Under the pieces are notes generated by a model, which saw nothing but the letters and a program-made list of their open reading frames with translations, did not search any database and was not told the DNA's origin. Below, piece by piece: positions 17,755-17,935 of a DNA stretch of 64,000 nt; position 1 is the stretch's first letter, and every line of letters begins with the position of its first letter. Location of the stretch: the NCBI GenBank assembly GCA_048500275.1, contig JASNYI010000002.1, positions 347,936 to 411,935 on the forward strand, in the 5' to 3' direction. The DNA is from Thermoanaerobaculia bacterium. Lineage in GTDB: Bacteria > Acidobacteriota > Thermoanaerobaculia > UBA5066. The position numbers and the translations under genes are program-made.

Positions 17755-17804
17755 CGTCTTCTCCTCCTCGATTCAAGGGCCGGACTTTCCGGTTGCGGCC
17801 AATG

Positions 17805-17820
17805 AGCGAGAAGCGTGCCA
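17805..17820 (-). promoter_or_regulatory. Sigma-54-like promoter element upstream of protease 2
   Basis: Minus strand TGGCACGCTTCTCGCT: GG-N10-GC is exact, one mismatch to TTGC. About 40 nt upstream of the start. Embedded in an unusually AT-rich 180-nt spacer. Confidence 0.5.
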
Positions 17821-17935
17821 TCTGAATCTGCAGGCCTTCCGGGTCGTTTGGGTCAGAAGCTGATCCGATTCAGCCCGAGTTTGGGGGTATTTTGTTGACC
17901 CATGGGTCGGACCGAGACCCGAATGAGACCAATAA

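What the first reader, a model, noticed from the sequence alone, without database searches (positions are those of the whole stretch)
17795..17935. Sigma-54-like promoter in an unusually AT-rich spacer upstream of M43 protease 2
The minus strand reads TGGCACG-CTTC-TCGCT (GG-N10-GC exact), about 40 nt upstream of the TTG start. The surrounding 180-nt spacer contains a low-GC island (gaccaataatcaatcaatgac, ggtattttgttgac) that stands out in a ~70% GC genome. Such an island could be an IHF or UAS region of the kind typical for sigma-54 promoters.
Basis: seen in the sequence. Interest (0 to 1): 0.5.

Follow-up and report, generated by a model that had tools for sequence, protein, structure and literature searches.

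The report
Conserved sigma-54 promoter of M43 peptidase genes
The flagged motif is very probably a real sigma-54 promoter with its own upstream activator sites, driving a secreted zinc protease gene in an uncultured Acidobacteriota genome, but the AT-rich patch is specific to this genome and is not the functional signal.

Summary
**Observation:** confirmed. TGGCACGCTTCTCGCT lies on the minus strand at 17820..17805 with exact GG-N10-GC spacing. It sits 50 nt before the TTG start of an M43 peptidase gene. The 181-nt spacer holds the lowest-GC stretches of the whole 64-kb window.

**Sigma-54 reading:** strongly supported by comparison with other sequences.
- The tandem paralog (71% identical) has its own TGGCACGATTCTGGCG at the same relative position.
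- Every close homologue found in Acidobacteriota MAGs and metagenome contigs has the element too. TGGCA and GC never vary, and the spacing never changes.

**Upstream activator sites:** conserved, but they are GC-rich half-sites, not AT-rich DNA.
- Two adjacent 17-bp dyads of the form GGGTC-N7-GACCC are centred near -118 and -99.
- A proximal CTGACCC lies 35 nt before TGGCAC.
- Where the spacing differs in homologues, it differs by 10-11 nt, about one helical turn.

**AT-rich pieces:** one is the non-conserved spacer inside dyad 2. The other covers the stop codon of the upstream glycosyltransferase gene. Neither is conserved. The only IHF-like match lies upstream of the dyads, which is the wrong side.

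**Sigma-54 system:** the window encodes an enhancer-binding protein with an intact GAFTGA motif. The cognate activator and the inducing signal remain unknown.

**Verdict:** a new member of a known kind, of moderate interest.

The parts
17805..17820 (-). Sigma-54 type -24/-12 promoter element TGGCACGCTTCTCGCT, with GG at -25/-24 and GC at -13/-12
   Evidence: In 14 aligned upstream regions TGGCA, T(-15) and GC are invariant and the spacing never changes. Position counts over 24 instances are.
17794..17794 (-). Predicted transcription start, 12 nt downstream of the C at -12. It gives a 40-nt 5' UTR. This is inferred, not mapped.
   Evidence: Calculated. The predicted UTR is 31-41 nt in all homologues.
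17904..17920 (-). Upstream dyad 1, GGGTC-TCGGTCC-GACCC, 17 bp, centred near -118. Proposed binding site for a dimer of the enhancer-binding protein.
   Evidence: Its start lies 97-100 nt before TGGCAC in most homologues, and 109-110 nt in three upstream regions.
17885..17901 (-). Upstream dyad 2, GGGTC-AACAAAA-TACCC, centred near -99. The right arm is degenerate.
   Evidence: The GGGTCA arm is conserved 79-81 nt before TGGCAC, but the spacer sequence is not conserved.
17850..17856 (-). Proximal half-site CTGACCC, centred near -59 and starting 35 nt before TGGCAC
   Evidence: GACCC is invariant and the preceding T nearly so in alignment A1. The distance is 35 nt in 13 of 16 close upstream regions, 36 nt in two and 46 nt in one.
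17780..17792 (-). Short hairpin CCGGA-AAG-TCCGG at the 5' end of the predicted transcript (weak evidence)
   Evidence: There are 4 pairs with a few compensatory changes (TCGG/CCGA, CCGA/TCGG). It is absent from second-copy paralogs.
17761..17769 (-). Shine-Dalgarno sequence GAGGAGGAG, followed by the TTG start at 17754..17752
   Evidence: It is nearly invariant, and TTGAACGCCAAG is conserved in all homologues.
16801..17754 (-). M43 peptidase 2 coding sequence, 317 aa, with an N-terminal signal peptide-like segment and an HEVGHWMGLYH zinc motif
16741..16774 (-). Intrinsic terminator-like hairpin after peptidase 2, followed by a T-rich tail
   Evidence: -36.7 kcal/mol, z = -5.5
16520..16535 (-). 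The paralog's own -24/-12 element TGGCACGATTCTGGCG, ending 43 nt before its TTG start at 16476
16599..16634 (-). The paralog's two upstream dyads: GGGTC-CGGGGCC-GACCC at 16634..16618 and tGGTC-AGGAACG-GCCCC at 16615..16599
16565..16571 (-). The paralog's proximal CTGACCC, starting 35 nt before its TGGCAC
15517..16476 (-). M43 peptidase 1 coding sequence, 319 aa, 71% identical to peptidase 2
15462..15489 (-). Terminator-like hairpin after peptidase 1, conserved in syntenic loci
17927..17947 (+). AT-rich piece 1 (gaccaataatcaatcaatgac). It covers the glycosyltransferase stop codon (17936-17938) and the single IHF-like match. It is not conserved and is judged not to be part of the mechanism.
29476..33417 (+). 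Sigma-54 enhancer-binding protein gene with Sigma54_activat and HTH_8 domains and the GESGTGK and GAFTGA motifs. It shows that the genome runs a sigma-54 system. No link to this promoter has been shown.

Best explanation
Each of the two tandem M43 metallopeptidase genes is a separate transcription unit. Each has a sigma-54 (RpoN) dependent -24/-12 promoter, a short 5' UTR with a strong Shine-Dalgarno sequence and a TTG start, the coding sequence, and an intrinsic terminator.

Sigma-54 RNA polymerase would bind TGGCACG-N4-TSGC as a closed complex. A so far unidentified enhancer-binding protein would bind two adjacent 17-bp dyads (GGGTC-N7-GACCC), centred near -118 and -99, on the same face of the helix. 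It would probably also bind a proximal CTGACCC half-site near -59. It would then oligomerise, loop the DNA and use ATP hydrolysis to open the promoter.

Shown here: the sequence elements, their conservation, their fixed geometry, and an enhancer-binding protein gene in the window. Inferred: binding by sigma-54 and by an activator, the start site, and the signal. My guess for the signal is a nutrient or cell-envelope cue that controls secretion of the protease.

The low GC content of this particular spacer is incidental and specific to this genome.
For: 1. **Match and placement.** The element matches TGGCACG-N4-TTGCW with one mismatch and exact spacing, on the coding strand, 50 nt before the start codon.
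2. **Paralog.** The paralog has the same element at the same relative place. It sits behind a strong terminator, so that gene needs a promoter of its own.
3. **Homologues.** In 162 non-redundant M43 upstream regions, the motif TGGCA[CT]-N5-[TGC][TGC]GC occurs 18 times on the coding strand and twice on the other strand. About 2.2 are expected from the background rate of 0.04 per kb. Every homologue at 72% identity or more has it.
4. **Pattern of conservation.** Over 24 instances, GG, A(-22) and GC are 24 of 24 while the N4 spacer varies. Sigma-54 promoters show this pattern of conserved positions.
5. **Upstream sites.** The dyads and the proximal TGACCC are conserved islands in otherwise variable sequence. 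In 1.7 Mb of fetched loci, the double dyad occurs only upstream of M43 genes.
6. **Geometry.** Distances are fixed (35 nt; 79-81 nt; 97-100 nt), and the exceptions shift by 10-11 nt.
7. **More distant loci.** Thermoanaerobaculia loci L019, L036, L068, L076 and L115 keep a GG-N10-GC element plus clusters of TGACCC half-sites.
8. **Sigma-54 system.** An enhancer-binding protein gene with GAFTGA lies in the window.
9. **No alternatives found.** There is no sigma-70-like promoter in 16500-19300 and no Rfam family match.
Against: - There is no transcript or binding data.
- rpoN is not in the window, and I could not check it in the source genome.
- Position -14 is C or G rather than the consensus T in most instances.
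- The cognate activator is unknown, and no enhancer-binding protein gene sits next to the M43 genes in loci that carry the module.
- No terminator separates the upstream glycosyltransferase gene from peptidase 2, so read-through could also contribute to its expression.
- The sigma-70 scan uses E. coli-type hexamers, which may not describe Acidobacteriota promoters.
Confidence: 0.85

Rival explanations
1. The promoter is sigma-54 dependent, and the AT-rich island is an IHF site, or the enhancer itself, that bends the DNA between activator and promoter.
For: The spacer holds the lowest-GC stretches of the whole window. One IHF-consensus match with a single mismatch lies at 17934..17946.
Against: - The IHF-like match lies upstream of both dyads, on the glycosyltransferase stop codon, so it is not between enhancer and promoter.
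- IHF-like hits are at chance frequency: 2 seen against 0.97 expected.
- Neither AT-rich piece is conserved, and the spacers of homologues are 59-71% GC.
- The stretch between dyad 2 and the promoter holds a conserved CTGACCC, not an IHF-like sequence.
Confidence: 0.08
2. The TGACCC and GGGTC sites are bound by a regulator that is not an enhancer-binding protein, for example a repressor or a response regulator. The true activator of the sigma-54 promoter would bind elsewhere or act from solution.
For: No cognate enhancer-binding protein was identified. The proximal CTGACCC near -59 is closer to the promoter than typical enhancer sites. The half-site matched no known enhancer-binding protein site in the literature search.
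Against: - The positions (-99 and -118), the 17-bp dyad symmetry, the tandem arrangement about two helical turns apart, and insertions of one helical turn are what is expected of sites for activators with Fis-type DNA-binding domains, as at NtrC-dependent promoters (textbook knowledge of glnAp2).
- The sites co-occur strictly with the -24/-12 element.
Confidence: 0.1
3. The motif is a chance match in a GC-rich genome. The gene is transcribed by read-through from the glycosyltransferase gene or from an unrecognised sigma-70-type promoter.
For: Nine of 100 shuffles of the window gave at least one hit with one mismatch or fewer. No terminator lies between the glycosyltransferase gene and peptidase 2.
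Against: - The core bases are invariant in the paralog and across all close homologues, while the flanks diverge.
- The paralog's copy lies behind a strong terminator.
- The motif is about eightfold enriched and shows a strand bias of 18 to 2.
Confidence: 0.03

Closest known systems
NtrC-dependent sigma-54 promoters such as glnAp2 of E. coli and Salmonella (comparison from textbook knowledge, not tested here)
   Same: A -24/-12 element of the TGGCAC-N5-TTGC type. Two adjacent 17-bp dyad-symmetric activator sites about 100-140 bp upstream. Further weaker sites closer to the promoter. Dependence on helical phasing.
   Different: The half-sites are GGGTC/GACCC, not TGCACC/GGTGCA. The target is a secreted M43 metallopeptidase gene. 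The lineage is uncultured Acidobacteriota (Holophagae/Thermoanaerobaculia-like). Position -14 is usually C or G. The activator has not been identified.
IHF-assisted sigma-54 promoters such as Pu of the TOL plasmid or nifH of Klebsiella (comparison from textbook knowledge)
   Same: A distant enhancer combined with a -24/-12 promoter.
   Different: No conserved IHF consensus or AT-rich bend lies between enhancer and promoter. A conserved activator-type half-site occupies that position instead.
Computationally reconstructed sigma-54 regulons (for example Desulfovibrio vulgaris, PMC4641369; Clostridiales, PMC6615313)
   Same: The same kind of inference: a conserved -24/-12 element plus a conserved palindromic upstream motif found by comparing genomes.
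   Different: I saw these papers only as titles and abstracts in search results and did not read them. I found no report covering Acidobacteriota, M43 peptidases or a TGACCC-type site.

Membership tests
Sigma-54 (RpoN) dependent -24/-12 promoter | GG and GC dinucleotides separated by exactly 10 nt, within the TGGCACG-N4-TTGCW consensus | tested here: met
   Searches show 11 of 12 specified bases matching. The spacing is exact in the window, the paralog and all homologues.
Sigma-54 (RpoN) dependent -24/-12 promoter | Located upstream of a gene, on its coding strand, at a distance that leaves room for a 5' UTR | tested here: met
   The motif ends 50 nt before the TTG start. The predicted UTR is 40 nt and contains a Shine-Dalgarno sequence.
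Sigma-54 (RpoN) dependent -24/-12 promoter | Core positions conserved in orthologous loci while flanks diverge | tested here: met
Sigma-54 (RpoN) dependent -24/-12 promoter | The genome encodes sigma-54 (rpoN) | not testable with these tools
   No RpoN-box signature occurs in the six-frame translation of the window, and the source genome is not available. Indirect support comes from an enhancer-binding protein gene with GAFTGA in the window. GAFTGA is the loop that contacts sigma-54 (PMC3162934).
Sigma-54 (RpoN) dependent -24/-12 promoter | An upstream activating sequence for an enhancer-binding protein about 80-150 bp upstream | tested here: met
   Conserved tandem dyads lie near -118 and -99 with phasing preserved. 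That an enhancer-binding protein binds them is inferred.
Sigma-54 (RpoN) dependent -24/-12 promoter | Transcription depends on sigma-54 and on ATP hydrolysis by an enhancer-binding protein | not testable with these tools
   This needs an experiment.
IHF-assisted sigma-54 promoter | An IHF site (WATCAANNNNTTR) between the enhancer and the promoter | tested here: not met
   The only match with one mismatch or fewer is at 17934..17946, upstream of the enhancer. It is at chance frequency and is not conserved.
IHF-assisted sigma-54 promoter | An AT-rich or bent region conserved in orthologous loci | tested here: not met
   Spacers in homologues are 59-71% GC, and the A-rich spacer of dyad 2 is replaced by unrelated sequence.

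The most novel reading that the evidence does not exclude
The module of a GGGTC-N7-GACCC double dyad, a proximal CTGACCC and TGGCACG-N4-TSGC marks a previously undescribed enhancer-binding protein regulon. It would put secreted M43 metallopeptidases under sigma-54 control throughout a Holophagae/Thermoanaerobaculia-like clade of uncultured Acidobacteriota. A second promoter flavour, TGGA[AC]C-N5-[CG]TGCT, lies upstream of M43 homologues; the two of those loci that carry a taxonomic label are named Myxococcales. That hints that sigma-54 control of this protease family extends across phyla.
Probability: 0.5. Interest if true: 0.45.

Novelty: new member of a known kind. Interest (0 to 1): 0.35.

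Why it matters
Almost nothing is known about transcription control in Holophagae/Thermoanaerobaculia-like Acidobacteriota, which are abundant and mostly uncultured.

- **A testable regulatory module.** The promoter, the enhancer half-site and their fixed spacing give a handle for predicting when these bacteria secrete proteases.
- **A way to find the regulon and the activator.** The module gives a search pattern for scanning genomes.
- **An example for sequence-only scans.** The conspicuous feature (low GC) was incidental, and the functional signal was GC-rich.

The mechanism itself is textbook, so a specialist would not be surprised.

Tried and rejected
- **IHF site.** The consensus scan gave hits at chance level, and the one hit in the spacer is misplaced and not conserved.
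- **Sigma-70-type promoter.** None was found in 16500-19300.
- **Known RNA family.** Nothing at Rfam gathering thresholds over the whole window, and nothing at E <= 1 over 15300-18100. No tRNA genes.
- **Cognate activator by adjacency.** Enhancer-binding protein signatures occur only in L013, L077 and L136. L013 and L136 have no -24/-12 match upstream of their M43 genes. L077 has none on the coding strand, and its upstream region did not come up in the later promoter scans.
- **Other regulon members.**
  - In the window, dyads at 3577-3595 and 54049-54065 lie inside ORFs and have no promoter element nearby.
  - A cluster of GACCC/GGGTC pentamers at 8721-8840 lies inside a small ORF, downstream of a sigma-54-like motif, so it is not an enhancer.
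  - In 1.7 Mb of related loci, the double dyad occurs only at M43 genes.
- **Literature.** No report of a TGACCC-type enhancer-binding protein site, of sigma-54 promoters in Acidobacteria, or of sigma-54 control of M43 peptidases.
- **5' UTR hairpin as a conserved RNA structure.** It has only 4 pairs with marginal covariation, so I recorded it as a hint.
- **Source contig.** The best protein match to peptidase 2 is 90% identical, so the window itself is not in the protein collection.

Full report
**1. Checking the observation**

The minus strand reads TGGCACGCTTCTCGCT at 17820..17805. GG is at 17819/17818 and GC at 17807/17806, so exactly 10 nt separate them. The motif has one mismatch to TGGCACG-N4-TTGCW, a C at -14. 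I quote that consensus from memory (the Barrios et al. 1999 compilation) and did not re-derive it here.

The ORF downstream (16801..17754, minus strand, TTG start, 317 aa) matches Peptidase_M43, PF05572, at E = 3.8e-18. By inspection it has a signal-peptide-like N-terminus and an HEVGHWMGLYH zinc motif.

The upstream ORF is a group-1 glycosyltransferase. Its TGA stop is at 17938..17936, so the spacer is 17755..17935, 181 nt long and 56% GC. The window as a whole is 72.2% GC.

The lowest-GC 100-nt, 40-nt and 20-nt stretches of the whole 64 kb all lie in or across this spacer. The low-GC observation is therefore correct. The first AT-rich piece, however, overlaps the last codons and the stop codon of the glycosyltransferase gene.

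At one mismatch or fewer the motif is unique in the window, against 0.10 expected. By itself that is only suggestive.

**2. The paralog**

At two mismatches or fewer there are six hits, against 2.46 expected. One is TGGCACGATTCTGGCG at 16535..16520. It ends 43 nt before the TTG start (16476) of a second M43 peptidase gene (15517..16476), which is 71% identical to the first.

Between the two genes lies a strong hairpin with a T-rich tail (16774..16741; -36.7 kcal/mol, z = -5.5). The downstream copy therefore needs its own promoter. A similar hairpin follows the second gene (15489..15462) and is conserved in syntenic loci. Each peptidase gene thus looks like a separate transcription unit. No sigma-70-like promoter was found in 16500-19300.

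**3. Related sequences**

The nearest named relatives are Acidobacteriota MAGs labelled Acidobacteria bacterium, Holophagales and Thermoanaerobaculia. Metagenome contigs encode peptidases 75-90% identical in the same gene order: lipoamide-dehydrogenase-like gene, glycosyltransferase, one or two M43 genes, then a HlyD adaptor and a MacB-type ABC transporter. One contig carries the gene in a different neighbourhood.

All 17 upstream regions I examined from these loci contain TGGCA[CT]-N5-NNGC a similar distance (about 45-55 nt) before the start codon. In a 14-sequence alignment the flanks diverge and carry indels, while four islands stay conserved:
- a dyad region;
- CTGACCC;
- TGGCACG-NTTC-T[CG]GC;
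- the Shine-Dalgarno sequence plus TTGAACGCCAAG.

Across 162 non-redundant M43 upstream regions, the promoter pattern occurs 18 times on the coding strand and twice on the opposite strand. About 2.2 are expected from the background rate of 0.04 per kb. Every homologue at 72% identity or more has it.

Over 24 instances, GG, A(-22) and GC are invariant, T(-26) is 20 of 24, C(-23) is 23 of 24, and the N4 spacer and position -14 vary. Sigma-54 promoters show this pattern of conserved positions.

More distant Thermoanaerobaculia loci (L019, L036, L068, L076, L115) also keep a GG-N10-GC element with several TGACCC half-sites upstream.

**4. The enhancer**

In the window the dyads are:
- GGGTC-TCGGTCC-GACCC at 17920..17904;
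- GGGTC-AACAAAA-TACCC at 17901..17885.

Relative to a predicted start at A17794 they are centred near -118 and -99, about two helical turns apart. A CTGACCC lies at 17856..17850, near -59. The paralog has the same three elements, at 16634..16618, 16615..16599 and 16571..16565.

The geometry is tight across homologues:
- The proximal TGACCC starts 35 nt before TGGCAC in 13 of 16 close upstream regions.
- Dyad 2 starts 79-81 nt before TGGCAC.
- Dyad 1 starts 97-100 nt before TGGCAC.
- Where the spacing is longer (L168 second copy, and L003/L085), the distance from dyad 1 to the promoter grows by 10-11 nt, about one helical turn.

Spacing that changes only in whole helical turns is expected if the sites must face the promoter from one side of the helix, as a DNA-looping activator requires.

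In 1.7 Mb of fetched loci the double dyad occurs only upstream of M43 genes. In the window, GGGTC-N7-GACCC occurs only at the two promoters and once inside an ORF.

**5. What the AT-rich island is**

In homologues the spacer reads agtctct, agctctc, agtcacg, aacgaca, aggattc and so on. The arms are conserved and the A-rich content is not.

Homologues have GC-rich sequence there. Their spacers are 59-71% GC, against 56% here.

The one IHF-consensus match with a single mismatch (17934..17946) lies upstream of both dyads. It is not conserved, and such matches are at chance frequency. The IHF idea is therefore not supported.

**6. Is a sigma-54 system present?**

The window encodes a 1313-aa ORF (29476..33417) with Sigma54_activat (E = 4.7e-61), AAA_lid_14 and HTH_8 domains, and the GESGTGK and GAFTGA motifs. 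GAFTGA is the loop that contacts sigma-54 (PMC3162934).

rpoN itself is not in the window, and I could not check it in the source genome. No evidence links this particular protein to the M43 promoters. No enhancer-binding protein gene lies next to the M43 genes in loci that carry the module.

**7. Mechanism**

Most likely (0.85): sigma-54 holoenzyme forms a closed complex at -24/-12. An enhancer-binding protein with a Fis-type DNA-binding domain binds the two dyads, and probably the proximal half-site. It then oligomerises, loops the DNA and opens the promoter by ATP hydrolysis. The result is tightly switched expression of a secreted metallopeptidase.

The sequence elements, their conservation, their phasing and the presence of an enhancer-binding protein gene are shown. 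Binding, the start site and the signal are inferred. Read-through from the glycosyltransferase gene may add a basal level for peptidase 2, because no terminator lies between the two genes.

**8. Comparison with what is known, and novelty**

The architecture works like NtrC-type promoters such as glnAp2: two 17-bp dyads about 100-140 bp upstream plus sites closer to the promoter. That comparison rests on textbook knowledge.

The differences are the half-site sequence, the target gene, the lineage, and the usual C or G at -14.

Full-text searches found no report of sigma-54 promoters in Acidobacteria, of sigma-54 control of M43 peptidases, or of a TGACCC-type enhancer. This is a new member of a known kind. 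It is useful as a first cis-regulatory module for a poorly studied clade, but it is not mechanistically surprising.

**9. A side lead**

M43 homologues in loci L007/L094, L043, L116, L130 and L140 carry TGGA[AC]C-N5-[CG]TGCT roughly 30-60 nt before the start codon. Of these, only L007/L094 and L043 carry a taxonomic label (uncultured Myxococcales); the other three are unlabelled metagenome contigs. Five were seen against 0.28 expected (sequences).

I defined this pattern after seeing the hits. GGAAC also resembles an ECF-type -35 element, so this is only a hint that sigma-54 control of this protease family may be broader.

Noticed in passing
window 8660..8917 (-) and 8944..8959 (-): An 85-aa ORF matches the Os1348 family of NHLP-clan RiPP-like proteins (NF038399, 69 bits against a cut-off of 40). 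A sigma-54-like motif, TGGCACGGCCCTTGAC, ends 26 nt before its ATG. The motif has GA instead of GC at -13/-12, so it may or may not be functional.
   Followed up: partly
window 15373..15400 (-); alignment A2: An 11-mer, CGTGCCACACT, is nearly invariant (position 8 is C or G) 7 nt before the ATG (15372) of the HlyD-type adaptor gene in all six syntenic loci. No obvious Shine-Dalgarno sequence is present. On the opposite strand it reads TGGCACG but has no conserved GC at the -12 position. Its function is unknown.
   Followed up: partly
window 17780..17792 (-), and the equivalent positions in L161, L162, L163, L166, L168, L004 and L003: A short hairpin (CCGG-N3-4-CCGG, with variants TCGG/CCGA and CCGA/TCGG) lies at the very 5' end of the predicted transcript of first-copy M43 genes. 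It is absent from second-copy paralogs. Covariation is weak (4 pairs).
   Followed up: partly
loci L007/L094, L043, L116, L130, L140: M43 homologues in these loci have TGGA[AC]C-N5-[CG]TGCT upstream of the start codon: 5 seen against 0.28 expected. Only L007/L094 and L043 carry a taxonomic label (uncultured Myxococcales). The pattern was defined after seeing the hits. It could be a second sigma-54 promoter flavour or an ECF-type -35 element.
   Followed up: partly
window 29476..33417 (+): The enhancer-binding protein ORF has a ~1000-residue N-terminal region rich in Ala, Leu and Arg with no Pfam match. GC3 stays high along the whole ORF, so it seems to be coding. This would be an unusually large sensory region.
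   Followed up: no
window 12284..20814 (-), and L161-L168: A conserved gene order recurs in several metagenome contigs: lipoamide-dehydrogenase-like gene, group-1 glycosyltransferase, one or two M43 peptidase genes, HlyD adaptor, MacB/FtsX permease, ABC ATPase. The number of M43 copies varies (one in L166, two in the window, L162, L163 and L168).
   Followed up: partly
window 17927..17947 (+): A short ATTG/TTGA tandem run (cattgattgattattgg on the minus strand) lies at the very end of the glycosyltransferase gene. It accounts for the lowest-GC 20-mer in the window and is absent from homologues.
   Followed up: yes
window 24265..27315 (-): A second secreted-type protease gene (S8 subtilase with a P-domain) lies 6.5 kb away. 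No TGGCAC-type motif was found upstream of it.
   Followed up: partly
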